Virus genome (UHGV): UHGV-1407433
Source: a virus
DNA length: 25,186 nt
Direction: 5' to 3' (one strand)
Below are positions 1,000-22,315 of this stretch, piece by piece. The notes under the pieces were generated by a model, which did no database searches, was not told the origin of the DNA, and was given only the letters and a program-made list of their open reading frames with translations. The translations under genes were made by a program, and so were the position numbers. Position 1 is the first letter of the stretch. Every line of letters starts with the position of its first letter.

Positions 1000-1036
1000 A
1001 AAATTGAACCTTGTCAACAACCTAAAAGGAGTCCCG

Positions 1037-1270
1037 ATAAAACGTTCTATTGTAATTTTGACATTAACATTTCTGTTATCTGCTTGCGGTACTGGTTTGG
1101 ACACAGGAAAGCCTAATTCCGGTGTTATTCCAAAACCTTTAGACCGTGACGGTAACGGTTCTTTAATCTATGACACTGAAAAACTGCCTTATACTGGTCA
1201 ATGGTGTCATGAACTCGATCACAATATGCGCCGCATCGGTAGCCCGTCCAACTGTGTAGCTAACTACTAA
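1037..1270 (+). CDS. small secreted lipoprotein; candidate superinfection-exclusion or receptor-masking accessory gene
   Basis: The signal peptide KRSIVILTLTFLLSAC has a lipobox L-S-A-C. AAAGGAG (1025..1031) lies 5 nt before in-frame ATA (1037). The mature part is about 60 aa with two further Cys. The gene is AT-rich, opposes the late operon, and ends at a bidirectional terminator. The start codon is uncertain, because no ATG, GTG or TTG lies downstream of the predicted transcription start. The 773..1003 part of the track ORF is antisense to the stf-like fragment and is rejected. Confidence 0.6.
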   Translation: MKRSIVILTLTFLLSACGTGLDTGKPNSGVIPKPLDRDGNGSLIYDTEKLPYTGQWCHELDHNMRRIGSPSNCVANY

Positions 1271-1271
1271 A

Positions 1272-1304
1272 AAGAAAACCACGCGCGAAGCGGGGTTTTT
1301 GTTT
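1272..1304. terminator. bidirectional intrinsic terminator between J and the lipoprotein gene
   Basis: The stem is AAAACCACGC / GCGGGGTTTT with one mismatch and loop GCGAA. It is flanked by an A run on one side and a T run on the other, so both convergent transcripts end in a U tract. Confidence 0.75.
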
Positions 1305-4300
1305 ATTCAGAGAATGAACCTGAACCGCGCGACACTATGACGGTCGGTGAGTTTATATACGCACCCATACCATTTTGAGCAGATACTCTAATTTTCACTG
1401 TAACCCACCTGCTATATACTGCTGATGAGTGCATCACAAGGCGCTCGGTGCCATCAACGGAAAGATTTTTCTCTGAACCGTTAATGTTTATTGTACACCC
1501 ACCAAAACCTTTTACGTTTGCCATAACGCAGATATGTCTGCTATGTGCTGCGTCAGATGTGTCATTGTATGTGATTGTTTTTTCGAGTACCCCATTATTT
1601 AATCTACTAACGTCAGATCCTGTGTACATGTTTGCAACATCACCGATAAACGAACTTGCTTCCACTGTTCCAGTAAATCTACCGTTGGTTGCATACACTG
1701 TACCTGTGAAAGATCCGTTGCTAGCGTATACAGTACCTCTGACAGTTACGTTGTTGAATTCAGCATCTCCAGCTTTATTCAACTTCCAGCCAGCAGAACC
1801 AGCAACATAATTGTTCGACTGGATAAAATTACCAATCTTTGCGTTGCTGATAGTGCCGTCCTGGATGAAACTGTCCCGGATGAATGTCTGCCCGTTCTGG
1901 ATCACAAACGGTAAAGCCACGCTATTTCCGGCTGCCGTGGTGACGGCGAAGCGATCAGCCAGGAAGATAACCTGCGACTGCATGCCGGATGGCGTATTCT
2001 CCACGCCGATACCCATCCCCGCGGCGTAATACTGCCCGTTGCTGGAGACACCAACCTTGATGTTGTACATCGCGATGAGGTCGCCGTTTACGTTCGCTAT
2101 AGCCTGAGCGTTGGTGGTGATGGCTGAGGTATGCCCGTTCACCGTAGCCGTAATGCCGTTTATCTGCGTGGCCGTTGCCTGCTGATAGTCGGAGAACGTC
2201 TGATTCAGGCTGTTTATGGATGCCTTGTTGCCGTTGACATCCGTCTGCAGGCTCAGCAGAGAGCGCGCCGTTGCCTCCTTCTCGTTAACGATTACCTCAT
2301 CAATACGATCCAGCTGCGCACTGTTACCGGCGACCGTCGCGGAAAGCCTTTTGCGTGTGGCCACCTGCGCCAGCCCGTTCTGGATAATGGCAATGGCTGA
2401 GTTCTTGACCCCGCCCGTCATGCCGTCCATAGACACGCTGATGCTGTCGATTCGCTGGCCCAGCGCGGTATCAGCCGTTGCGACGGTCTGCTCAAGATCT
2501 GATAGAGAGGAAGATACATCACCGACCGTGCTCGAAAGCTCATTAACACTGGTCTGAACCTGCCCAATGTCCTGCGCGTTTTTTGCGATTTCCTGCGCCT
2601 GGAGCTCAAGTTCATCGTTGGCCTGTTTGATGTCGTCAGCCATGCCAGCAATTTTTTCATTGCTGTCCACCGCGTTCTCGATCAGGTCTTTGAACGTATC
2701 GGAGTCTTTAATTTCCTCCAGAATCACATCTGTGATATCGGAAACATCGATGCTGGCCTGTCCTCGCACCCATTCTGTGTACCCTGATTCGTTGCCGCTG
2801 CGGTCCACCAGCTGCGCGCGGTACCAGAAAATCTGCCCAGCCTTAAGGCCCATCTGCTGATATTTGCGCTGCGGGTAAGGCACATCGGCCAGCAGCATGG
2901 CATCGTCTTCAGTACCGGTCAGGCTGTACTGAATTTCCGTCTTCAGCGTGTCGTCGGTATTCGCCTGGAATCCCCAGTTCAGCTCGATACCGAACACCAC
3001 GTTTTCAGAGGCGATAAAGCCAACCGGCTTCGGTGGATTGCCCACTTTACCCGTCAGCGTTTTCTCTTCTGAATAGCCCCATCCGGATGAAATTTCTGCG
3101 GCATTGATTGCGCGCACCCGCACCAGGTAGCGCCCGGCATAAATCCCCGGGACGTCGAATGACGTGGTGGAGGTGCGCGGCACGTTAACCCAGTTCCCGT
3201 CGTTGCGGCGCCATTGCGCTTCATAGGCGATAGCGTTCTGCGCCTGGTCCCAGCTCACGCGCATTGTTTCGACGCTGATATTTTGCTGAACCACGGAAAA
3301 CGAGCTGATCACGATATTCGCAGGCGGCGACTGGTTGCCCGGCGGGATCACGCTCACCGGCCGTTGGTCAATGATGGCTCCGGTATCGATACGGGCATAT
3401 TTATCCGGGTCGTGCCATGCGCCGGTAATCGAGAAAGTGCCATCATTGTTATCGGAAACGCTGACAACACGATACTGCTGCGCGTAAAGCTCGTCAGATT
3501 CAACCACCCAAACAGCTTCGGCCTGTGGCGTCTCACTGTATGCCGTGGTGACTGTGACTGATTCCCCGTTCACGGCCTGAATGGTCCTGCTCTGCGACGC
3601 TCCGGAAGGCAGGTTGAGAATAAGGCGATCACCTGGTGCTGCATCAGCTACGCGGTCAAGTTTGATAACGCGACCGTTAACGGCGCTGATGCGGCCGCCC
3701 ATAACCTTTCCGGAAAGCAGCTCGTCTGCCACGGCGATGATGTAGCCCGGCTGCGGAATGTTTCCGTCCAGCCCGACATCAAACGAAACAACGCGATCCT
3801 TGTTATTGGTGAGAATACCCCAGCGCCCCTTTCGGTTCGCCTCTGACTGCCTGGTGCAGCCGATGGCTGTCATTTCCAGCTGATTGAAGCCGTACCGCGC
3901 CACCAGCGCCTGCTCAAATACCGGCTCCATCGCGTCGGCATAAGCGTTACCCGGGTCTGACCATGAAACCAGCGCTGTGGTGTAGCGGCTTTTGGTGGTG
4001 CTGCCCGAATAGGTAAAGCGCCCATTAACCACGTTTGCACGCGTGTAGCTGTAATCCACATCGCGGGGCATATCCGCCAGCGCAACGATTTGATCGCCAC
4101 CCCAGTACGTCATGCCCCGGAATATCGCCGCAAAATCACGTAACACGGTATAGGCGTCATTCCTCTCCTGCACGTACACGTTACAGGTATAGCGAGGCTC
4201 AGTGCCGCTACCGCCTTTACCATCAGGAACCGGCTGATCGCAATATTGCGCGACCTGATAAAGCGTCCATTTATCAATATTGGCCGCCGTCAGGCGATTG

Positions 4301-5193
4301 CCCAGCCCAAAGCGGTCGCTCACCACCAGATCGTAAAAAATCCAGGCTGGATTATCCGTCCACGCCCACTTAAACGCCCCTGTCCATGTGCCGCTGTAGG
4401 TGCGGGTCTCCGGGTCATACGTATCCGGAACGCGGATTACACGCCCTCGCGGTTCGCAGGATATTTGCGGGATAGAGCCGTTAAACTGGCTTGAGTCGAA
4501 TTCGATGTACAGCAGCGCGGTATTTGGATAACGCAGTTTGGCGTCAATAACCTCTGTGTAGCTCTGCAGCGTCATCGTGTCGCCAATTTTCGCGCTGTTG
4601 GCATCCGCCGTAAGCTTACGCAGGCGCACCGTCCATGTACTGCCTGCCTGTGGTAAATCGATACGATGGCTGCGTTCGTAGCCGGAAGTTGTCTTGCCGG
4701 TTACGCTGGTATTAAGTACCGTCTGCCAGGTGCCGCCATCGGTCTGCAGATCAATAGCGTAGTTAATTGAATAGCCAACCAGATCGCCATCATCCTCCTG
4801 TTTAAAAAGCGATGGCCACTTGAGGCGCAGGCGAACGGCTGACAGTTGCGTGTTGGTAAAGGTATGTGTCCAGCCGGTGGTGCTTGACACTTCGGTGCCC
4901 ACGCTGATTTCATTTTCTGTGCCGGGGATACCCTGAATATATTTTTGTGCCTGAGTCCCCGGACGAAATTCCCACGCCACGCCACTGAAGTTTTGCGATC
5001 CGTCTGCATTCTCCAGTGGCGTGCCATCGAGATAGATATCCTTCGCCGTCAACTGCCCTGCAAATTCGCCCTCTCCCAGTGCAACAAGAATTTTGGCTTT
5101 CGCTACGGACTGGAGATCGTCTGGTTGTTCAGTCGGGGTGCGTGAACTGGAGCTGCCGCCCTTGCGGCCTCTAATCGGAGTAGATGTAGCCAT
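1303..5193 (-). CDS. J: tail tip / host specificity protein J (central tail fibre)
   Basis: 1296 aa. The N-terminal two-thirds are collinear with lambda gpJ as recalled (YPNTALL, KWxLYxxxQYCDQxVPDG, FN3-like region). A long coiled-coil segment follows, then the conserved YYAAGMGIG..QVIFLADRFA block and a divergent C-terminal receptor-binding end. Confidence 0.95.
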   Translation of the reverse strand: MATSTPIRGRKGGSSSSRTPTEQPDDLQSVAKAKILVALGEGEFAGQLTAKDIYLDGTPLENADGSQNFSGVAWEFRPGTQAQKYIQGIPGTENEISVGTEVSSTTGWTHTFTNTQLSAVRLRLKWPSLFKQEDDGDLVGYSINYAIDLQTDGGTWQTVLNTSVTGKTTSGYERSHRIDLPQAGSTWTVRLRKLTADANSAKIGDTMTLQSYTEVIDAKLRYPNTALLYIEFDSSQFNGSIPQISCEPRGRVIRVPDTYDPETRTYSGTWTGAFKWAWTDNPAWIFYDLVVSDRFGLGNRLTAANIDKWTLYQVAQYCDQPVPDGKGGSGTEPRYTCNVYVQERNDAYTVLRDFAAIFRGMTYWGGDQIVALADMPRDVDYSYTRANVVNGRFTYSGSTTKSRYTTALVSWSDPGNAYADAMEPVFEQALVARYGFNQLEMTAIGCTRQSEANRKGRWGILTNNKDRVVSFDVGLDGNIPQPGYIIAVADELLSGKVMGGRISAVNGRVIKLDRVADAAPGDRLILNLPSGASQSRTIQAVNGESVTVTTAYSETPQAEAVWVVESDELYAQQYRVVSVSDNNDGTFSITGAWHDPDKYARIDTGAIIDQRPVSVIPPGNQSPPANIVISSFSVVQQNISVETMRVSWDQAQNAIAYEAQWRRNDGNWVNVPRTSTTSFDVPGIYAGRYLVRVRAINAAEISSGWGYSEEKTLTGKVGNPPKPVGFIASENVVFGIELNWGFQANTDDTLKTEIQYSLTGTEDDAMLLADVPYPQRKYQQMGLKAGQIFWYRAQLVDRSGNESGYTEWVRGQASIDVSDITDVILEEIKDSDTFKDLIENAVDSNEKIAGMADDIKQANDELELQAQEIAKNAQDIGQVQTSVNELSSTVGDVSSSLSDLEQTVATADTALGQRIDSISVSMDGMTGGVKNSAIAIIQNGLAQVATRKRLSATVAGNSAQLDRIDEVIVNEKEATARSLLSLQTDVNGNKASINSLNQTFSDYQQATATQINGITATVNGHTSAITTNAQAIANVNGDLIAMYNIKVGVSSNGQYYAAGMGIGVENTPSGMQSQVIFLADRFAVTTAAGNSVALPFVIQNGQTFIRDSFIQDGTISNAKIGNFIQSNNYVAGSAGWKLNKAGDAEFNNVTVRGTVYASNGSFTGTVYATNGRFTGTVEASSFIGDVANMYTGSDVSRLNNGVLEKTITYNDTSDAAHSRHICVMANVKGFGGCTININGSEKNLSVDGTERLVMHSSAVYSRWVTVKIRVSAQNGMGAYINSPTVIVSRGSGSFSE

Positions 5194-12664: not shown

Positions 12665-13690
12665 TTATGCCAGTTTGACGGAGACGAATGCGTCAGGGTC
12701 TGGCAGCAGCATCAGCGGAGCTGACTGAATCATGGTGAATTCGCGCGCCGGATCCCCCGACTGCACCCAGTTTTTCGGGTAGCGTGTCGAGGCATTGATA
12801 CCTTCGCGCTGGGCATCAGCATCAAGAATGCAGCCATAGGTACGCAGGCCACGAGCCTGGGTATTCCCCAGCACCATTGTCAGGTCCGGCAGATAATTCT
12901 TTTTGACGTCGTTTTCGACGTACTGGCCGGAGTACACCACGATGGCCACATCGCCAAACATCCCCTTGTATGAAACAGCCATACCCAGGTCTTTCACGGC
13001 AGTTTCCAGCTCAGAGTTAGAACCACGACGCGTATCCAGCTTCTTCTCAACAGCCTTGAAGGAACGGAACAGCGCCCAGCCTTTCGGATCGAACACAATG
13101 ATGTTGACCACACCGCTGGCGTTGAGCGCGTAGGCTTCAATGTCATCGGTCGGGTCATACGTTTCTTTGTCGCGGGTTGACCATGCAGCCGCACCGGCCT
13201 GGACAATGTTGTTACCAGCGCTGCGGCCCATATCGACTTCAACAGGCTCGAACGCTTCCCCGGTCATGGTGTATTTACCGCTGAGCACCGCCGAAACAGC
13301 CTGTTTCTCTTCGACCTGAGCAATCGCCAGCTCTTCATCCTTCATGTTCTGAAGGATAATGCGGCGACGGCGATAGACCGGGTCAGCGAGATTCTGCGGA
13401 TCCTCATCCGGCAGGCGGCGGAGAGTCATCAGTGGGTTAACTTCGTGTTTCGGCTTCACATAACCCGGCGTGAATTCAGACGTGCTGCCGCCACGGGAGC
13501 GGATCACTTTGCCGGAGACAATCGGCGAGACGTAAAGCGCCATATTGACCAGGCCAGGAATTTGCGACAGGTAAACCTTCTCTGTACTGAAGGGATAGGT
13601 TTCGCGGAAAAAGATACGCAGGAAAAGCGGATCGAATTTGAATTTCTTCTCATTGACCGCCAGCAGTTGGGCAGTGGTGTAAACGGACAT
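12665..13690 (-). CDS. E: major capsid protein E
   Basis: 341 aa, collinear and highly similar to lambda gpE throughout as recalled (MSVYTTAQLLAVNEKKFKFDPLFLRIFFRE...TMIQSAPLMLL). Confidence 0.97.
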   Translation of the reverse strand: MSVYTTAQLLAVNEKKFKFDPLFLRIFFRETYPFSTEKVYLSQIPGLVNMALYVSPIVSGKVIRSRGGSTSEFTPGYVKPKHEVNPLMTLRRLPDEDPQNLADPVYRRRRIILQNMKDEELAIAQVEEKQAVSAVLSGKYTMTGEAFEPVEVDMGRSAGNNIVQAGAAAWSTRDKETYDPTDDIEAYALNASGVVNIIVFDPKGWALFRSFKAVEKKLDTRRGSNSELETAVKDLGMAVSYKGMFGDVAIVVYSGQYVENDVKKNYLPDLTMVLGNTQARGLRTYGCILDADAQREGINASTRYPKNWVQSGDPAREFTMIQSAPLMLLPDPDAFVSVKLA

Positions 13691-13703
13691 AGATTTTTCC
13701 CGT

Positions 13704-13728
13704 AAAAAAAGCCGCGCAAGCGGCTTTT
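13704..13728 (-). terminator. intrinsic terminator-like hairpin in the D-E intergenic spacer
   Basis: On the minus strand, GCCGC-TTGC-GCGGC is followed by TTTTTTT and preceded by AAAA. It sits in a 67 bp D-E gap. In lambda, as I recall, D and E are almost contiguous. Confidence 0.55.
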
Positions 13729-13757
13729 ATGAATGATGATGGTTGTAGAAATGCGGA

Positions 13758-14090
13758 TTAAACGATGCTGATTGCAGTACCGGCGAACGCGTTACGTTTA
13801 ATGTTGTCGTCGGTGACGGCAGATGGCCAGAGGACATCTTCAATACGGAAAGAGCCAGATTTGTAATATGCCAGTTCCGCGCTGTTCTGGTCTGCGGTTA
13901 CAGCCAGAACGCCCACAGCCTCGCCAGCATGAGTACCATCCCAGGCGGTCAGCTTGCCAGAGGTAGCATCCAGCATGAGCGGTGTCATGGCTGGGGTGGA
14001 TGCCGTCAGTTCGCCTGGACCATACGCGGTGTGCGCCGGGTCGCTGTTACCAAGCGGCTGGGTATGTGTGAAAACTTCGGTAATTACCAT
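13758..14090 (-). CDS. D: head decoration protein D
   Basis: 110 aa. GNSDPAHTA...TPLMLD...FAGTAISIV matches lambda gpD as recalled. Confidence 0.95.
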
Positions 14091-17219: not shown

Positions 17220-19141
17220 TATTCATCTCCAGATAATGCCCGCGCGTAATCCGCCAGGGTCTTGTTATTGTTACGGCTGCCTTCTTCCTCCAGCAGGCTG
17301 GCCAGAAGTGAATCAAGATTTAGCTGCCAGCGGGATATGCTTATACGCAGCGCCGCCAGTGCATAAACAAAGCAATCGAGCGCCTCATTTCGTCGTTTTT
17401 TGCTGTCCCAGACGATCTTTTTCTTTCCGTCTACCCATTTTTCCACCTGCTCTTCAGCTGTTAGTTGTTGGGCCTCTGTTAGATCGTAGATTTCTGGGTT
17501 ATTCGGGAAATGAACCGCTCCCGCCAGCGGCTCGTCTCTTTGCGCCACCAGCGTGAAACGGTTATAAATCTGCTCTTTTGCGGTGTCTGTTCCTACCTCT
17601 GTGAGGTAAACACCATTCTTGTTACGCTTGCGTGGCATGTTCGCCACTGGCTTTCCATAAACCGACGCCCCCTTTATAGGGATCACACGAAACAGACCGT
17701 GTTTTTTTGAGCGGTTGTAGACGATGGTGGGATCAATGCCGCCAATATCCCAGCAAGTGCGGGATATAACCATTTCGAGACCGTTCTGGCGCTTATACGT
17801 CCTGTTGATCGCTTCATCAACTCGAGCGAGAGTCGACTCATCATCATGACGACCCATAATGATAATTTTGTCGATAAGCCAGCTTTCCTCTCCCGGCCCC
17901 CATCCCCAAACACGCATTTCGTAACGGTCAAGCTGGGAGTCAATACCCGCTGTCAGATATGCCACTCGCTCCGGCACAGACGCTTCAAAGTGCTCTTTTC
18001 GTTCCGCTAAAACTTCAGCATCGGGTCGTTCACCTATTTTCGGTTCCCACGTTTCGCCCAGGGTCGTGTTAACGAAAGTTTTTCGCTTACCCGTATCACC
18101 TTTTGTTTTTATCCAGTCCTTGACGATCTGCACCCAGGTTGTGAACGGGCTATATGCGGTCCAGATGTGGAATGTAACGCTGTCAGGAGGTTCAATTTCG
18201 GTACCGGATGAAGAAAACCAGTTAAGGCCGTCTCGTGTCCAGATACCTGTTTCATCACAAATATACCTGGCCTCCAGAAATTCCAGCTCCTGTTGTTTAA
18301 TCACACAGGCATTGTGTTCACAGAGGTAGTAAACGCTGGCAGGTTCTCCCGGAGACCATTTGAAGCCAAATGGTGTCTCTTTATCACCGAATTTCAGATA
18401 CTGCTCTTCCCCACAGTGTGGGCATGGAACATGGAACCGAAGAAAATGTTCAGACTCCTTAGCAGCTCTTTCTATCTGGCACGTACCTTTGACTTTCGGT
18501 GTAGATCCGCGAATGGATTTCGGCCATACAGAACCCTCAATACGCTTATCACCCAGAAAGGTGGGAGAACCTTCTTTCTCGATGTCATCATCGAAAGCGG
18601 CGAGCTCGTCGTAGCCAGCCACATCAACTGATTTTTCACGGTAGTTTTTTGCAGCCTTACCGCCCAGGCACCAGAAACCACGACCATTCGAGAAACGCTT
18701 CATGCTCAGCGTATTGTCCCGGTGTTTTTTACCGTACCAGGGAGCAAGCGCCAGCAACGTCGGAATATCACGAATGGTCGGTTCTACATGAGACTTCATG
18801 AAGTTTTCAGCATCACCGTCGGTTGGTAACCATATTAGGGAGTTACGCTGTTTATGTTGGATGAAATATGCGTAAACGCCGAGCAACATTTTTGAGTAGC
18901 CGACACGAGCCGATTTAACGACATTCACCTCGCGAATATAGTCATTACCCATCGCATTCATAATTGCACGCTGAAATGGCAGTGTTTCCCAGCGCCCTTC
19001 CTGGTAGGCAGACTCTTTCGGGAGATAATAATTCTCATCTGCCCATTCAACTGCTGTTTGCGGTTGCGGCCGGTACAGCGAACGTAACCCCGCCCGCGCA
19101 GAGTGCTGCAGCCCCTTAACCTGACTGTTCGATATATTCAC
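17219..19141 (-). CDS. A: terminase large subunit A
   Basis: 640 aa, lambda gpA-like (641 aa in lambda). Its start overlaps the Nu1 3' end, as in lambda. Confidence 0.97.
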
Positions 19142-19661
19142 TCAGCAACCCCGGTATCATTTCATCCAGCGCAGCTGCCTTGTTCATGGCCTTAATGATG
19201 TCCTTCTTGAGGAAATCAATATGTCGGTTCTCCAGCTCCGGGAAGCGCCGCTGAACCGACAGAGGTATTCCATCGAGAATGCTGGCGATTTCTCCGGCTA
19301 CCCGCGACAGCACGAACGTGCAGAATGCGGTCTCCACCACTTCAGCGGACTCTTTTGCATTTTTTAATTCCTGAGCGTCAGCCTGAGCTCGCGTAAGTCG
19401 GTGTCGCTCATATTCAATCGTGCCAGGTTGAAGATCGGACTCAGAAGCGATACGGAGATCTTCAACTTCCTTCCGCAACTTTTCATTTTCTATAGCTGCA
19501 TCGCGCGCACTGTACCATTCGATTGCAGCAGCAGATTCAAAGAGAACCTCATTACCTTTGCCACCACCGCGGACAACCGGCATACCTTGCTCCTGCCAGT
19601 TCTGAATCGTTCGGACGCTTACCCCGAAAATTTCGGATAAGCGTTTTTTGTTAACCTCCAT
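19116..19661 (-). CDS. Nu1: terminase small subunit Nu1
   Basis: 181 aa. MEVNKKRLSEIFGVSVRTIQNWQEQGMPVVRGGGKGNEVLF is near-identical to lambda gpNu1 (MEVNKKQLADIFGASIRTIQNWQEQGMPVLRGGGKGNEVLY, recalled). Confidence 0.97.
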   Translation of the reverse strand: MEVNKKRLSEIFGVSVRTIQNWQEQGMPVVRGGGKGNEVLFESAAAIEWYSARDAAIENEKLRKEVEDLRIASESDLQPGTIEYERHRLTRAQADAQELKNAKESAEVVETAFCTFVLSRVAGEIASILDGIPLSVQRRFPELENRHIDFLKKDIIKAMNKAAALDEMIPGLLSEYIEQSG

Positions 19662-19949: not shown

Positions 19950-20417
19950 TCATCGCAACAGCGCTGACCATATCGTGCCACCTGGCCGAAGACTCTTCTT
20001 CAGTTCCTCGGACACAACATCTGAGATCGCTTTTACCATTTCAGGGGATAGCTTCACGCCGGTCTTAATTTCGGGACAGATGCCAACATTGATGGCATAG
20101 CCTTTTCGTGGGTCGTTCTCTATCCGGCCAAACTGAATATTTACAGAGCCACCAATATAACCACCAGCAGGAACACCAAAGCGCGTATTCACCAGGTGCT
20201 TAATGGCGAACTCCTGCCCTTCAGCGGTCAGGAAGGTGTAATAATTTTCCTTTTGATACTCCGTCGCGGTATGGCGTGTTTCAGCGAATCCCAGCTCTAG
20301 AAGCTCAGCAGCACCAGATTTGGCTGGCAGATCACCAGACTGAAGCGCGCCACGGAAAAACAGCGCATACAGAACATCCGTCGCCGCGCCGGACAACGTG
20401 ATAATTTTATGACCCAT
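19950..20417 (-). CDS. hypothetical protein, the last gene before the right cos end
   Basis: 155 aa. ATG 20417 follows AAGGAA. I recognise no family. A short hairpin (GGACGT-TTAG-ACGTCC) follows the stop. Confidence 0.7.
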   Translation of the reverse strand: MGHKIITLSGAATDVLYALFFRGALQSGDLPAKSGAAELLELGFAETRHTATEYQKENYYTFLTAEGQEFAIKHLVNTRFGVPAGGYIGGSVNIQFGRIENDPRKGYAINVGICPEIKTGVKLSPEMVKAISDVVSEELKKSLRPGGTIWSALLR

Positions 20418-20490: not shown

Positions 20491-20529
20491 AGCTGAAAGA
20501 CTTTCTACGATGTGCGCGTGCGATGCGCA

Positions 20530-20553
20530 TAAAAAAGCCGCGTGATGGCGGCT
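20530..20553 (-). terminator. intrinsic terminator (minus strand)
   Basis: On the minus strand, AGCCGC-CATCAC-GCGGCT is followed by TTTTTTAT. Confidence 0.7.
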
Positions 20554-20682
20554 ACTGTTTGAATATCAGGGTGTTGTTTCGTCTTAACCCTGGTTAATGT
20601 AGGCATTCAGCCCGTCGGTGGTGGGACACTGGCGCACTTAATAAAGAGTAATGGCTGATTACCTCAGAATAAGGAATCAAAA

Positions 20683-20943
20683 ATGTCAGAAGGTTTTGGT
20701 TTAAAAGAAAAGGTTGAGCAGTTAGAAAAAGAATTAGCCGTACAAAAAATAGCAAATCAGCTTGCTTTTGGAGCACTAATTAAAGCAGTTAATGAGCTGT
20801 ACCCGAACAAAGATTTATATGATGGGTTGACAAAATTTGTCCAGGAAAAACTTGATCCTGAACGTGTTAAAAACATCCCTAATCTTCACGAGGCCTTTCT
20901 AGAAGCTGCGAAAATACTGAGGACTGACGCATCTCCTGAATAA
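20683..20943 (+). CDS. hypothetical helical protein (86 aa), plus-strand accessory gene in an AT-rich island
   Basis: ATG 20683 follows AAGGA by 7 nt. It is the only convincing plus-strand gene in the island. An AAAGGCAGT / ACTGCCTTT inverted repeat (20954..20962 and 20997..21005) plus a T run lies downstream. I recognise no family. Confidence 0.6.
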   Translation: MSEGFGLKEKVEQLEKELAVQKIANQLAFGALIKAVNELYPNKDLYDGLTKFVQEKLDPERVKNIPNLHEAFLEAAKILRTDASPE

Positions 20944-21037
20944 TTTTATCAACAAAGGCAGTTGTGTCCTCTTGCTTTTCATTCACAATGCATGTGACTG
21001 CCTTTTCTAAAGCTGTAATTCGTTCTTCAAGTGTCAT
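20879..21037 (-). CDS. hypothetical small protein (52 aa), convergent with and overlapping the plus-strand gene
   Basis: ATG 21037 (MTLEERITALEKAVTCIVNEKQ...) follows AGGAG by 5 nt. Its 3' end overlaps the 3' end of 20683..20943 by 65 nt. The coding status of the overlapped tail is uncertain. Confidence 0.45.
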   Translation of the reverse strand: MTLEERITALEKAVTCIVNEKQEDTTAFVDKIIQEMRQSSVFSQLLERPRED

Positions 21038-21064
21038 ACCCACTCCTGTCATTGGCTTCAAAAT

Positions 21065-21139
21065 GATAAACCCCGCATTTGCAAGTCCTATTTATACCCC
21101 GCAGGGGATAAAAACCATATTATCCGCTTGCGGGGATAA
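21065..21139. repeat. palindrome cluster A: two TTATCCC..GGGATAA-type hairpins plus one half-site
   Basis: P1 at 21091..21113 is TTTATACCCC-GCA-GGGGATAAAA. P2 at 21120..21139 is TTATCCGCTTGCGGGGATAA. A half-site GATAAACCCCGC lies at 21065..21076. The cluster is related to cluster B at 22948..22997. Confidence 0.8.
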
Positions 21140-21177
21140 CCATTATCAAGCCCACCAGTAGATGGGCTTTGTAATGG

Positions 21178-21435
21178 CTACTTCGCTTTTGCTTCCGCTC
21201 GCTTACGCCGGCGCTCTTCTTTCCTCTCGGCTTTTGCCATGTCCATGAATGCCTGCATGATCGAGTTCCGCATCATGTAGCTAACAAAGTGATGATTGAC
21301 ACAGCCGTTGAGGCGCAGCTGCTCGCCAAACTCATCCACCGAGGCCAATGCTTCCATCATGCCCTTCTCGCCTTTCATGAACTCTGAGAAGTCGCGCCCC
21401 GCTCTGGAGGCGCATTCTATTATTCGGGTGCTCAT
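21178..21435 (-). CDS. hypothetical protein (85 aa) with basic C-terminal tail
   Basis: ATG 21435 lies 2 nt after the upstream gene's TGA (21440..21438). The protein is MSTRIIECASRAGRDFSEF...KAERKEERRRKRAEAKAK. A hairpin AAGCCCA/TGGGCTT (21148..21169) follows the stop. Confidence 0.65.
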   Translation of the reverse strand: MSTRIIECASRAGRDFSEFMKGEKGMMEALASVDEFGEQLRLNGCVNHHFVSYMMRNSIMQAFMDMAKAERKEERRRKRAEAKAK

Positions 21436-21437
21436 GA

Positions 21438-22166
21438 TCAGGCCGCCGCATAGAGCAATTTCATCTGCCCTTTCACCGGGAATGCCGACATGCAACGCGC
21501 TTCGAAATCACGATAATCAGAGCACCCATTGGCAATGCTGGTAACGGCAATGATCTGTCGCTCAACCAATGTCAGCGCGTCAGGTTTAAGGTGCTGATGG
21601 ATTTTGTCTCCCGCAGCCAGCCGTCTTTTAACCTCTGCATATACTTCTGGTGGTAATACCTGGCCATATACCCACTTGGCACTGATCATCCCAAATAGTG
21701 CGGGGCGACGACCTGGTCGATGACGGGGCAGCCCTGACATTTTGAACATCGCAGAATAAAACGGATCGCTAAACCTCTTTTCCCATGGCTGAGATTTATC
21801 CAGAAGGAAAATAGCCTTTATTCTTTCATCGTCGATATGATGAACGGAACCCTGAATGATTGCGTCAATTTGCTCATCACACCAGATCTCAAAATCTACA
21901 GAAAGCCATCGAGCAAATCTGACCGCCAGCTTTGGGTGAAGCCATGTTCCGCCGCCACGGTCTTTGCGAGCGCGGCTGGTTTTTACATATGTGATATTCC
22001 CATATCTACTCTTTAACGCCTCGATGTAACGGACAGTCTCAGGAAGCCTAAGCCACTGAGCCGGCTCCTTGTTGAACTTGTCAGCTGCCGCAGTCGCGTC
22101 AAACCAGCCATCGTCAGAAAAACGCATGGGATGGCCTTCGAAATCAATCGGGATGATATTGGACAT
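21438..22166 (-). CDS. KilA-N domain / P63C domain protein (antirepressor-like DNA-binding protein)
   Basis: The likely start is MSNIIPIDFEG at 22166. The N-terminal ...WFDATAAADKFNKEPAQWLRLPETVRYIEAL...GGGTWLHPKLAVRFARWLSVDFEIWCDEQI fits the KilA-N pattern. The C-terminal half (FSDPFYSAMFKMSGLPRHRPGRRPALFGMISAKWVYGQVLPPEVYAEVKRR) resembles the P63C family as I recall it. Confidence 0.8.
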   Translation of the reverse strand: MSNIIPIDFEGHPMRFSDDGWFDATAAADKFNKEPAQWLRLPETVRYIEALKSRYGNITYVKTSRARKDRGGGTWLHPKLAVRFARWLSVDFEIWCDEQIDAIIQGSVHHIDDERIKAIFLLDKSQPWEKRFSDPFYSAMFKMSGLPRHRPGRRPALFGMISAKWVYGQVLPPEVYAEVKRRLAAGDKIHQHLKPDALTLVERQIIAVTSIANGCSDYRDFEARCMSAFPVKGQMKLLYAAA

Positions 22167-22315
22167 CGTATTTACCTTTTTGGTGATATGAGCCAGTTCT
22201 CGCAGACATGGACAGCCCAAGAGCGGCACGATGTAAGCCACCGTCCTGTCTCTGTCTCATATCCCGAAAAGCTCTTGGTTGATATGCGCACGAGAATGCG
22301 CGGTTTACTGCGGAC

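What the first reader, a model, noticed from the sequence alone, without database searches (positions are those of the whole stretch)
20600..21061. Convergent, 3'-overlapping pair of small genes in an AT-rich island opposing the late operon
The 86 aa gene (20683..20943) is the only credible plus-strand gene in this island and has a good SD. A 52 aa minus-strand ORF with an AGGAG SD (21037..20879) converges on it and overlaps it by 65 nt. The nearest minus-strand terminator is at 20553..20530. Any minus-strand transcript, whether from the late operon or a local promoter, is therefore fully antisense to the plus gene. The plus gene's putative terminator stem (20954..21005) lies inside the minus ORF. 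This arrangement would give mutually exclusive expression: the plus gene in the lysogen, silenced by late transcription. Both proteins are predicted helical and soluble and start with similar E-rich heptad-like segments.
Basis: partly seen in the sequence, partly recalled or inferred. Interest (0 to 1): 0.5.

Follow-up and report, generated by a model that had tools for sequence, protein, structure and literature searches.

The report
Reverse-moron gene pair in a prophage
The two small converging, overlapping genes are both real and form a mobile prophage cassette of a known kind (HK97 genes 22/23). One gene is probably made in the dormant prophage and its partner only during virus production, as in known phage defence/self-protection pairs; their function is untested.

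Summary
Both ORFs are genuine genes. The 86-aa plus gene (A) is under strong purifying selection. The 52-aa minus ORF (B) stays open in all relatives, has an in-frame 5-codon deletion in one, and has recognisable homologues next to A relatives of only about 30% identity.

The pair is a mobile cassette (about 20530-21047). It sits at four or more different junctions of lambdoid late operons. B always runs with the late genes and A against them.

DNA homology of the roughly 150-nt terminator plus leader upstream of A places it with the published "moron / reverse moron" pairs: HK97 gp22/gp23, HK022 gp22/gp23 and ES18 gp24/gp25.

That leader is better conserved than either protein. It contains a hairpin with compensatory changes and G·U pairs that fit only the plus strand. 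In 165 cassettes it precedes 19 unrelated small-protein families.

The geometry matches Tab/anti-Tab of Pseudomonas phage JBD26 (83-aa genes, convergent, 47-nt overlap) and the phi80 Tai/Ati noncontiguous operon. No sequence homology to either was found.

Most likely this is a prophage-expressed effector with a late-expressed partner or antagonist. It is a new member of a known kind. Function and transcripts are untested.

The parts
20530..20553 (-). Intrinsic terminator of the minus (late) strand, forming the left end of the cassette. Stem AGCCGC/GCGGCT followed by a T-run. In other contexts the T-run is directly followed by the ATG of the next late gene.
   Evidence: Scan and fold. Conserved in nearly all cassettes, with 5 of 6 pairs showing compensatory changes (GCCGC..GCGGC against GCCACC..GGTGGC). 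Annotated as a putative terminator at the same place in HK97 and ES18.
20554..20606 (+). Upstream part of the conserved leader and presumed promoter region of A. Contains CTG-N9-CAG (20555-20569) and the hairpin CAGGGT/ACCCTG (20567-20572 / 20587-20592), then the conserved CCTGGTTAATGT.
   Evidence: Alignment of 23 leaders and pair counts (helix 2, 79% paired). Absent or replaced in L016 and L043. No confident sigma-70 promoter, so its role is inferred.
20607..20682 (+). Core leader RNA of A.
- P1: UCAGCC (20607-20612) pairs with GGCUGA (20653-20658).
- P2 hairpin: 20613-20620 / 20627-20634, loop GUGGGA.
- P3 hairpin: GAGUAAU (20646-20652) / AUUACCUC (20658-20665). Its 3' arm resembles the 16S rRNA 3' end.
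- SD AAGGA at 20672-20676.
   Evidence: RNAalifold.
- P2 is 98.9% paired, with 3 compensatory pairs and U·G or G·U pairs that would be C·A mismatches on the minus strand.
- P3 folds in 27 of 29 distinct leaders, with different arm sequences.
- P1 is invariant, so it carries no covariation evidence.
- The motif is unique in the window: 1 match against 0 expected.
- Homologous to HK97, HK022 and ES18 at 74-84% identity.
20683..20943 (+). Gene A (86 aa): an acidic, soluble, all-helical small protein in the reverse-moron cargo position. Corresponds to mEp213_072, WP_016063087 and PHROG 21164.
   Evidence: - ORF.
- dN/dS of 0.09-0.25 with pS of 0.4-0.9.
- Eight close clusters and distant relatives.
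- AF2 pLDDT 69.
- No Pfam, NCBIfam or PADLOC hit.
20879..20943 (.). The 65-nt 3' overlap of A and B. It is the most conserved coding DNA of the cassette.
   Evidence: Divergence is 3-17% here, against 28-57% at A's third codon positions elsewhere. A's third-position change drops to 5-24% inside the overlap.
20954..21008 (+). Terminator-like hairpin of A plus a U-run (arms 20954-20962 / 20997-21005, then TTTTCT), lying inside B.
   Evidence: Inverted repeat I4. The fold is weak in the window but strong in L008, ES18 and L041. ES18 and HK97 annotate terminators for the reverse gene at the equivalent place.
20879..21037 (-). Gene B (52 aa): a small three-helix coiled-coil-like protein, co-directional with the late operon. 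It is the minimal member of a mosaic family that starts with MTLEERxxALE. Corresponds to mEp213_071 and PHROG 28630. PGAP does not call it.
   Evidence: - Open in all 8 close relatives, with an in-frame 15-nt deletion in L008.
- The only stop-free frame in 6 of 6 sequences.
- Homologues sit beside distant A relatives (L016; 33 of 33 viral loci).
- BLASTP network.
- AF2 pLDDT 74.
21038..21047 (-). Shine-Dalgarno AGGAG (21047-21043) of B, forming the right end of the conserved cassette core.
   Evidence: Homology with independently placed cassettes (L008, L014) ends here.

Best explanation
The island is one allele of a mobile two-gene cassette of lambdoid siphophages. It is the same element as the published "moron / reverse moron" pairs HK97 gp22/gp23, HK022 gp22/gp23 and ES18 gp24/gp25.

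**Shown**
- Both genes are real.
- They travel together.
- B always points with the late operon and A against it.
- A conserved minus-strand terminator and a conserved, structured plus-strand leader lie upstream of A.

**Inferred mechanism**
- In the lysogen, A is transcribed from its own promoter in the leader region. The leader RNA (P1/P2/P3 upstream of the ribosome-binding site) sets its stability or translation.
- B has little or no promoter space in most contexts. It is made only when Q-antiterminated late transcription reads through it.
- That late transcript continues antisense across A and its leader, past the cassette terminator, into the next late gene. In the lysogen the terminator keeps stray minus-strand transcription out of the late genes.

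**Most likely function (by analogy only)**
A is a prophage-expressed effector, plausibly an anti-phage or virion-assembly-blocking protein. B is its late-expressed partner or antagonist that prevents self-harm during induction, as in Tab/anti-Tab and Tai/Ati. Antisense interference would be a secondary layer.

The 3' overlap locks the two C-terminal segments into one inheritable unit.
For: **Cassette and mobility**
- The conserved block 20531-21045 has unrelated flanks in L008, L012, L014 and L015.
- Insertion sites are tape-measure gene|M (L039), M|L (L008, L017, L018, ES18), I|J (L021, L041, L050, HK97, HK022) and lysis|terminase (window, mEp213, HK633, L024).

**A is coding**
- dN/dS is 0.09-0.25.

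**B is coding**
- Intact in all relatives, with an in-frame indel, and uniquely stop-free.
- Homologues lie next to A relatives of 26-37% identity.

**Leader and terminator**
- Leader homology to HK97, HK022 and ES18 has E-values of 1e-14 to 1e-34.
- Their annotations read "reverse moron product" and "moron product", with putative terminators at the equivalent positions.
- Leader structure is supported.
- B starts 21-37 nt after the upstream late gene in tail contexts, so it is read from the late operon.

**Analogues**
- In JBD26, atab is at 13377-13628 (+) and tab at 13582-13833 (-). Both are 83 aa, convergent, with a 47-nt overlap. Tab is constitutive from the prophage and anti-Tab is a late gene that binds Tab (PMC10884400).
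- In phi80, Tai/Ati form a noncontiguous operon upstream of the packaging genes, the same site as here (PMC11364771).
- Tha/Ith provide a third example (PMC11087260).
Against: - There are no expression data for this locus or any relative.
- No convincing sigma-70 promoter was found for A.
- A and B show no sequence or fold similarity to Tab, anti-Tab, Tai or Ati, or to any defence family.
- The body of B is mosaic and shuffles independently of A. For example, L040 combines an L039-type A with an L021-type B N-terminal part. That is not what a tightly co-evolving binder predicts, unless binding uses the overlap-encoded C-terminus.
- Some leader-bearing cassettes have no clear B (L054, L058).
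- The overlap length is not fixed (-38 to +123 nt), so the overlap itself is not essential.
- In this window B has about 140 nt of upstream spacer with a TATAAAT element. It could therefore also have its own promoter and be expressed in the lysogen.
Confidence: 0.5

Rival explanations
1. These are two independent morons that share an insertion hot spot. They have no functional link. The convergent overlap reflects only genome compaction, and each gene's terminator happens to fall inside the other.
For: - The HK97 and HK022 records call both genes moron products and give each its own terminator.
- B's N-terminal and middle parts recombine independently of A.
- The overlap varies from -38 to +123 nt and is absent in ES18.
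- The window has a spacer upstream of B with a -10-like TATAAAT and palindromes.
Against: - A convergent ORF of at least 40 aa accompanies nearly all of 157 cassettes, whatever the cargo family or insertion site.
- In tail contexts B abuts the preceding late gene with no room for a promoter.
- The same geometry in JBD26 is a proven functional pair.
Confidence: 0.25
2. The function is at the RNA level. The plus-strand transcript (conserved leader plus A region) would act as an antisense or regulatory RNA against late mRNA of the same or related incoming phages, in the manner of STnc6030 of BTP1. Alternatively the pair would be a type I toxin-antitoxin-like module. The A peptide would be secondary.
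For: - The leader is more conserved than either protein and has a covarying structure.
- The plus and late transcripts must be fully complementary across the cassette.
- STnc6030 is a precedent for an antisense RNA within late genes that excludes superinfection (PMC7067206).
Against: - A is under strong purifying selection as a protein (dN/dS 0.09-0.25).
- Cargo ORFs are always present, at 62-99 aa, behind a good ribosome-binding site.
- The RNA would be antisense only to B, which is non-essential and variable.
- Neither protein is hydrophobic like a type I toxin.
- No Rfam family matches. The isrK hit scores 17.6 bits against a threshold of 50 and is not seen in relatives.
Confidence: 0.12
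3. Only the plus gene is real. The minus ORF would be a chance open frame kept open because the region is conserved as A's terminator and 3' end.
For: - PGAP and the 2025 mEp213 re-annotation call only A, as does the HK633 record.
- pN/pS of B's non-overlapping part is only 0.63, similar to the value for one antisense frame.
Against: - B is open in all relatives, including those 30-33% diverged.
- It has a 15-nt in-frame deletion in L008.
- Its ATG and SD are conserved.
- Clear protein homologues (MNLEQRVEALE...KEKIIDSIL...) lie beside A relatives of about 30% identity.
- The same N-terminal motif occurs next to unrelated cargos (L055, L059, L060).
Confidence: 0.03

Closest known systems
HK97 gp22 / gp23 ("moron" / "reverse moron"), HK022 gp22 / gp23 (srb) and ES18 gp24 / gp25. 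From memory these were described by Juhala et al. 2000 (J Mol Biol 299:27) and Casjens et al. 2005 (J Bacteriol 187:1091); neither paper could be read here.
   Same: - The roughly 150-nt terminator plus leader upstream of the reverse gene is homologous at 74-84% identity.
- The layout is the same: a late-direction small gene converging on a reverse small gene, then a late-strand terminator.
- These pairs also sit at junctions between late genes (there I|J and M|L; here lysis|terminase).
- Putative terminators are annotated at the equivalent positions.
   Different: - The protein cargos are unrelated by BLASTP and hhalign.
- This copy sits between the lysis and terminase genes rather than among the tail genes.
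- The overlap is 65 nt here, against 123, 81 and -4 nt.
- None of these pairs has a known function.
Tab / anti-Tab of Pseudomonas aeruginosa phage JBD26 (Patel et al., Nat Commun 2024, PMC10884400)
   Same: - Tab is a small (83 aa) reverse-strand gene with its own promoter inside the late operon.
- Its 83-aa late-operon partner converges on it with a 47-nt 3' overlap.
- The position is at the packaging genes.
- A prophage-expressed effector is neutralised by a late-expressed binder.
   Different: - No detectable sequence similarity for A against Tab or B against anti-Tab.
- The host clade differs, and the phage is Mu-like transposable.
- No homologous leader was found.
- Tab's activity, blocking tail assembly through the tape measure protein, has not been tested for A.
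Tai / Ati noncontiguous operon of phage phi80 (He et al., Nat Commun 2024, PMC11364771)
   Same: - The genomic site is the same: between the lysis genes and the packaging module of a Q-controlled late operon, with the defence gene on the opposite strand.
- The neighbouring gene is even homologous (phi80 gp49 and window 19950-20417).
- Late transcription lowers the defence protein, and a small late gene gives self-immunity.
   Different: - The phi80 gene I take to be Tai (gp52, 204 aa) is unrelated to A.
- Ati lies on the promoter side of tai (divergent), not converging on its 3' end.
- phi80 lacks the conserved leader.
Tha / Ith of Staphylococcus aureus prophages (Nat Microbiol 2024, PMC11087260)
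   Same: A defence gene and a small overlapping antisense inhibitor gene form a noncontiguous operon. That arrangement gives mutually exclusive expression in lysogeny and lysis.
   Different: - The polarity is reversed. The defence gene lies in the cI lysogeny operon and the inhibitor has its own promoter.
- The proteins are unrelated (an HEPN RNase).
- The host is Gram-positive.

Membership tests
HK97 gp22/gp23-type moron / reverse-moron cassette | Extra DNA of lower GC content inserted between late genes that are adjacent in related phages | tested here: met
   GC is 0.42-0.43 against 0.50-0.59. mEp213, L004-L012 and phi80-type relatives share the flanks with or without the island. The island is present in only 4 of 5426 E. 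coli genomes, while the flanks occur in hundreds.
HK97 gp22/gp23-type moron / reverse-moron cassette | DNA homology of the late-strand terminator plus the upstream region of the reverse gene | tested here: met
   blastn of 20528-20685 gives HK97 74% (E 1e-14), HK022 81% (E 7e-31) and ES18 84% (E 1e-34). The matches lie exactly upstream of gp23, gp23 and gp25.
HK97 gp22/gp23-type moron / reverse-moron cassette | A late-direction small gene converging on a reverse small gene, each with a terminator inside or beyond the other | tested here: met
   compared with the annotations.
HK97 gp22/gp23-type moron / reverse-moron cassette | An own promoter for the reverse gene, active in the lysogen | tested here: inconclusive
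   The consensus scan finds no plus-strand promoter in 20555-20682. Only weak candidates (TTGTTT ... TAATGT) were seen by eye. Expression cannot be tested with these tools.
Tab / anti-Tab (JBD26) | A small reverse-strand gene in the late operon with a converging, overlapping late-operon partner | tested here: met
   The window overlap is 65 nt and the JBD26 overlap is 47 nt.
Tab / anti-Tab (JBD26) | Sequence homology to Tab or to anti-Tab | tested here: not met
   hhalign of the A family profile against Tab gives probability 0.1. BLASTP gives no alignment. B against anti-Tab gives no hit.
Tab / anti-Tab (JBD26) | The effector blocks tail assembly of invading phage, and the partner binds and neutralises it | not testable with these tools
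   This needs plaque assays, electron microscopy and two-hybrid tests.
Tai / Ati (phi80) | A defence gene opposite to the Q late operon, upstream of the packaging module, with a small late gene giving self-immunity | tested here: met
   This is met for position and orientation only. Immunity itself is untested.
Tai / Ati (phi80) | Sequence homology to TaiEcA or AtiEcA | tested here: not met
   BLASTP of A and B against phi80 gp52 (204 aa) and gp51 (76 aa) gives nothing below E = 1. That these two are orf63 and orf64 is my own assignment, from size and position.
Type I toxin-antitoxin / antisense-regulated small toxin | A small hydrophobic, membrane-active peptide with a cis-antisense RNA | tested here: not met
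   GRAVY is -0.41 and -0.50, with no 19-aa window above 1.15. Both proteins are acidic and helical.
isrK Hfq-binding sRNA (Rfam RF01394) | A covariance-model score at or above the gathering threshold (50 bits) | tested here: not met
   The score is 17.6 bits on the minus strand at 20611-20531, driven mostly by the terminator. Eight related loci give no hit.

The most novel reading that the evidence does not exclude
The roughly 130-nt leader and its back-to-back terminator would form a portable, conserved "expression socket". Its RNA, with a P2 hairpin, a P3 hairpin pairing an SD-like arm with an anti-SD-like arm, and an invariant loop-to-5' pairing P1 (a possible pseudoknot), would be a cis-regulatory element controlling translation or stability.

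At least 19 unrelated small-protein genes have been plugged into this socket. That would make it a hypervariable prophage effector (defence) slot embedded antisense in late operons across Enterobacteriaceae lambdoid phages.

Each effector would be paired with a late-expressed antagonist. The antagonist's C-terminus is genetically interlocked with the effector's C-terminus by the 3' overlap.
Probability: 0.3. Interest if true: 0.7.

Novelty: new member of a known kind. Interest (0 to 1): 0.5.

Why it matters
If A and B act like Tab and anti-Tab, this cassette family is a ready-made catalogue of uncharacterised small prophage effectors with cognate late-expressed antagonists. It comprises 19 cargo families and occurs in about 4% of complete E. 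coli genomes and in model phages such as HK97, HK022, ES18, mEp213 and HK633, where genetics is easy.

The conserved leader offers a simple sequence handle for finding such slots. It is also a candidate new cis-regulatory RNA.

The work also corrects annotation. B-type genes are missing from PGAP and from several phage records.

Tried and rejected
- **Family libraries.** Pfam, NCBIfam and PADLOC give nothing for A or B. PHROGs gives only unknown-function families.
- **Structure search.** The A model against BFVD gives no match with E < 1. I ran no further fold searches because the model confidence is only pLDDT 69.
- **Homology to known systems.** None to Tab, anti-Tab, or the phi80 genes I take to be Tai and Ati.
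- **Common origin of cargo families.** hhalign links only Srb~L054~L058, L053~L059 and window~L041. The rest look unrelated, and ES18 gp25 is not significant at P = 0.05.
- **Rfam.** The isrK match is weak, lies on the wrong strand for the covariation, and is absent in relatives. I rejected it.
- **LexA box.** TACTG-N9-CAGG has the wrong spacing compared with CTG-N10-CAG. I rejected it by inspection.
- **Upstream ORF.** The ATG at 20651 opens a uORF, but the ATG is replaced by GGG, GCG or GTG in L039, HK97 and L050, and the frame shifts in L004. It is not conserved.
- **boxA-like CTCTTTAAC.** Present in some leaders and absent in the L041 type. Rejected.
- **CsrA-site idea.** The GGA motif is not conserved, for example in the window's AGUAAUGG. 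Dropped.
- **Sigma-54 promoter.** The spacing is off by one. Rejected.
- **Sigma-70 promoter for A.** Not found with confidence.
- **Single-sequence fold energies.** The leader's values are not unusual (z -0.2 to -2.4). The structural claim therefore rests on covariation alone.
- **Database scans.** A genome-contig scan with the distant A alignment found nothing. The alignment of the whole A family was too diverse for the locus finder.
- **Literature.** Juhala 2000 and Casjens 2005 are not held. Whether they already noted the shared leader is unknown to me.
Full report
**1. The observation**

The window is a lambdoid prophage. It is 100% identical to E. coli O68:H12 strain 97.3, and the island itself is 99.5% identical to phages mEp213 and mEp043. 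The late operon runs on the minus strand in this order:
- holin, lysozyme and further lysis-region genes
- a KilA-N gene (21438-22241)
- an 85-aa gene (21178-21435)
- the island
- a phi80 gp49-like 155-aa gene (19950-20417)
- Nu1 (19116-19661), TerL, then onward to J (1303-5193)

- The 86-aa plus ORF at 20683-20943, with AAGGA upstream.
- The 52-aa minus ORF at 21037-20879, with AGGAG 5 nt upstream.
- The 65-nt overlap.
- The minus-strand terminator at 20553-20530.
- The 9-nt-arm inverted repeat 20954-20962 / 20997-21005 inside the minus ORF.
- The GC dip to 0.42.

The plus-gene terminator is weak in this copy (dG -13.3, z -0.3). Its arms are conserved, and relatives carry strong hairpins there.

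**2. Both ORFs are genes**

A has only eight close clusters in 5.8 billion proteins. I aligned the cassette DNA from Enterobacter and metagenome contigs.

For A outside the overlap, dN/dS is 0.09-0.25 and synonymous sites are near saturation in the most distant pair.

For B:
- It is open in all eight sequences and keeps its ATG and SD.
- It has an in-frame 15-nt deletion in L008.
- It is the only one of six frames without stops in all six diverged sequences.
- Its non-overlapping part gives pN/pS of 0.63, which alone is not decisive.
- That DNA diverges only 10-33%, against 28-57% at A's third positions.
- The 65-nt overlap is the most conserved stretch, at 3-17% divergence.

The decisive evidence came from distant relatives. 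A profile search of 1.8 billion representatives found 80-114-aa relatives of A at 28-51% identity. Beside one of them (L016) lies a converging, 41-nt-overlapping 71-aa ORF reading MNLEQRVEALE...KEKIIDSILAKISSSKEFSRLV. This is a clear homologue of B, which reads MTLEERITALEKA...DKIIQEMRQSSVFSQLL. All 33 viral contigs encoding A relatives also have a converging, 32-53-nt-overlapping ORF. About half of the distinct variants start with the same MTLEERxxxLE motif.

**3. It is a mobile cassette with fixed polarity**

The conserved block runs from the terminator (about 20531) to B's SD (about 21047), and the flanks are unrelated in several loci. The cassette sits at these junctions:
- tape-measure gene|M
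- M|L
- I|J
- lysis|terminase

B is always co-directional with the late genes. In tail contexts it starts 21-37 nt after the preceding gene. A is always opposed. On the late strand, the terminator's T-run is often followed directly by the ATG of the next late gene.

**4. The best-conserved part is non-coding**

The roughly 150 nt upstream of A is more conserved than either protein. It stays about 75-85% identical between cassettes whose A proteins share 26-30% identity.

RNAalifold and pair counting on 23 leaders give these results:
- **Terminator helix.** Compensatory changes occur in 5 of 6 pairs.
- **Hairpin P2** (20613-20620 / 20627-20634). It is 98.9% paired with three compensatory pairs. 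Frequent U·G and G·U pairs would be C·A mismatches on the minus strand, so the structure belongs to the plus-strand RNA, A's leader.
- **P1** (UCAGCC 20607-20612 with GGCUGA 20653-20658). This pairing is invariant, so it gives no covariation evidence.
- **Whole structure.** 89% of cells are paired, against 25-47% when partners are slid.

A third hairpin, P3, pairs an SD-like arm (GGAGG-type) with an anti-SD-like arm. That arm reads GAUUACCUC, compared with the 16S rRNA 3' end GAUCACCUCC (the 16S sequence is quoted from memory). P3 folds in 27 of 29 distinct leaders, with different arm sequences. Its loop holds the P1 partner, so P1 and P3 together would form a pseudoknot.

Single-sequence energies are unremarkable. 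No Rfam family matches. The weak isrK hit lies on the wrong strand and is absent in relatives. I could not identify a confident promoter.

**5. The leader is a socket for unrelated cargos**

I searched collections with the leader core motif. It was found in:
- 10 of 185,579 species genomes, all Enterobacteriaceae
- more than 120 viral contigs

A separate blastn search with the whole 158-nt leader matched 27 cultured-phage records and, at least in part, 203 of 5426 complete E. coli genomes (9 of them near full length).

Pooling 165 cassettes gave these figures:
- 157 have an ORF behind the leader.
- These comprise 75 distinct proteins in 19 BLASTP families, mostly 62-99 aa.
- A converging ORF of at least 40 aa is almost always present.
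- The overlap ranges from -38 to +123 nt.

The overlap itself is therefore not essential. The convergent arrangement is.

**6. Identity with a known element**

The leader hits include HK97, HK022 and ES18. There it lies upstream of genes annotated as follows:
- HK97: Gp23, "reverse moron product", with Gp22, "moron product", converging on it. The pair sits at I|J, overlaps by 123 nt, and has terminators annotated at the equivalent places.
- HK022: gp23, "srb", with gp22.
- ES18: gp25 with gp24.

The window's island is thus a further allele of this published architecture. The cargo proteins differ. I could not read Juhala 2000 or Casjens 2005, so I do not know whether the shared leader was already noted.

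**7. How it probably works**

Three experimentally studied systems share the logic.

*JBD26 Tab/anti-Tab.* The geometry is the same. tab (83 aa) lies on the opposite strand with its own promoter. atab (83 aa) lies in the late operon and converges on it with a 47-nt overlap. Tab is constitutive from the prophage and blocks tail assembly of invaders. Anti-Tab is made late and binds Tab.

*phi80 Tai/Ati.* The pair occupies the very site of this island, upstream of the packaging genes within the Q operon. Tai is present in the lysogen and is reduced when Q is expressed. Ati is a small late gene needed to avoid autoimmunity.

[quoted passage not shown] The inhibitor protein nevertheless does most of the work.

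By analogy, I propose the following:
- A is a prophage-expressed effector.
- B is its late-expressed partner or antagonist.
- Late antisense transcription is a secondary damping layer.
- The terminator insulates downstream late genes in the lysogen.

Only the anatomy and the conservation are shown. Expression timing, binding and any anti-phage activity are inferred.

Points against this model:
- There is no sequence or fold similarity to Tab, anti-Tab, Tai, Ati or PADLOC families.
- B bodies are mosaic and shuffle relative to A.
- A few cassettes lack a clear B.
- In this window B has a spacer with a -10-like element and could have its own promoter.

**8. Verdict**

The pair is a new member of a known kind: the HK97-type moron / reverse-moron cassette, which is architecturally the same as Tab/anti-Tab.

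The added value of this work is threefold: proof that the small minus ORF is a real gene, the conserved structured leader, and the finding that this leader serves many unrelated small cargos. Interest is moderate (0.5). It would be higher if the socket, defence-slot and regulatory-RNA reading holds.

Noticed in passing
window 21054-21152 (minus strand 21138-21090): Two imperfect palindromes of about 20 bp lie upstream of B: TTATCCCCGCAAGCGGATAA and TTATCCCCTGCGGGGTATAA, about 27 bp apart. The second runs into a -10-like TATAAAT. They are shared with mEp213 and mEp043 and partly with L004-L012, but lie outside the universal cassette core. They could be operators or a promoter for B, or hairpin terminators of the upstream 85-aa gene.
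   Followed up: no
window 19950-20417 (-): This 155-aa late gene is homologous at its N-terminus to phi80 gp49 and is in PHROG 16910. It ends in ...LRPGGTIWSALLR. The same ALRPGGxxY motif occurs in the middle of long B variants (L018, L039, L041, L050), and shared weak PHROG hits (13555, 29765, 16910) link them. This suggests a mosaic pool of small late proteins.
   Followed up: partly
L039 4212-4583 and L050 4230-4529 (minus strand; long B variants): Long B variants contain a segment (GGQVFIDDAKINAGEVKAAQVQ) with weak, sub-threshold Pfam PF09327 Phage_Tail_Tip (J-like) hits at E = 0.0015-0.0035. Tai targets the C-terminus of J, so this raises a decoy idea. The 52-aa B of the window lacks this segment.
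   Followed up: no
window 1031-1270 (+), next to J (1303-5193, -): A second reverse-strand small gene lies in an AT-rich patch (GC 0.37-0.45) and converges on the end of J. It encodes a 79-aa lipoprotein (MPIKRSIVILTLTFLLSAC...) in PHROG 12984, annotated "lipoprotein" (E 3e-43). Its position and size recall Cor-type exclusion lipoproteins; that comparison is from memory and untested.
   Followed up: partly
L084 (viral contig IMGVR_UViG_2576861515_000004), ORF behind the leader: One leader-linked cargo is much larger, at 154 aa. It carries an ALIDTGAD motif reminiscent of retropepsin-like aspartic proteases. It has no PHROG hit.
   Followed up: no
L051 (HK633) 1633-1968 (-); window 20879-21037 (-) in NZ_CP061758 and PV340538: B-type genes are missing from several public annotations: HK633, PGAP for the window's genome, and the 2025 mEp213 record. 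The 2012 mEp213 record and PGAP for the L041-type cassette do call them.
   Followed up: yes
window 20651-20704 (+): An ATG at 20651 inside the conserved AUGGCUGAU loop opens a 17-codon upstream ORF that overlaps A's start out of frame. In L041 the equivalent uORF stops at TAA directly before A's ATG. The ATG is not conserved, being GGG, GCG or GTG in L039, HK97 and L050.
   Followed up: partly
window 20531-20611 (-): There is a weak full-length match to Rfam isrK (RF01394), at 17.6 bits against a threshold of 50. It consists of a hairpin, AUAUUCAAAC and the terminator. It was not reproduced in eight related loci and is probably driven by chance or by the terminator.
   Followed up: yes
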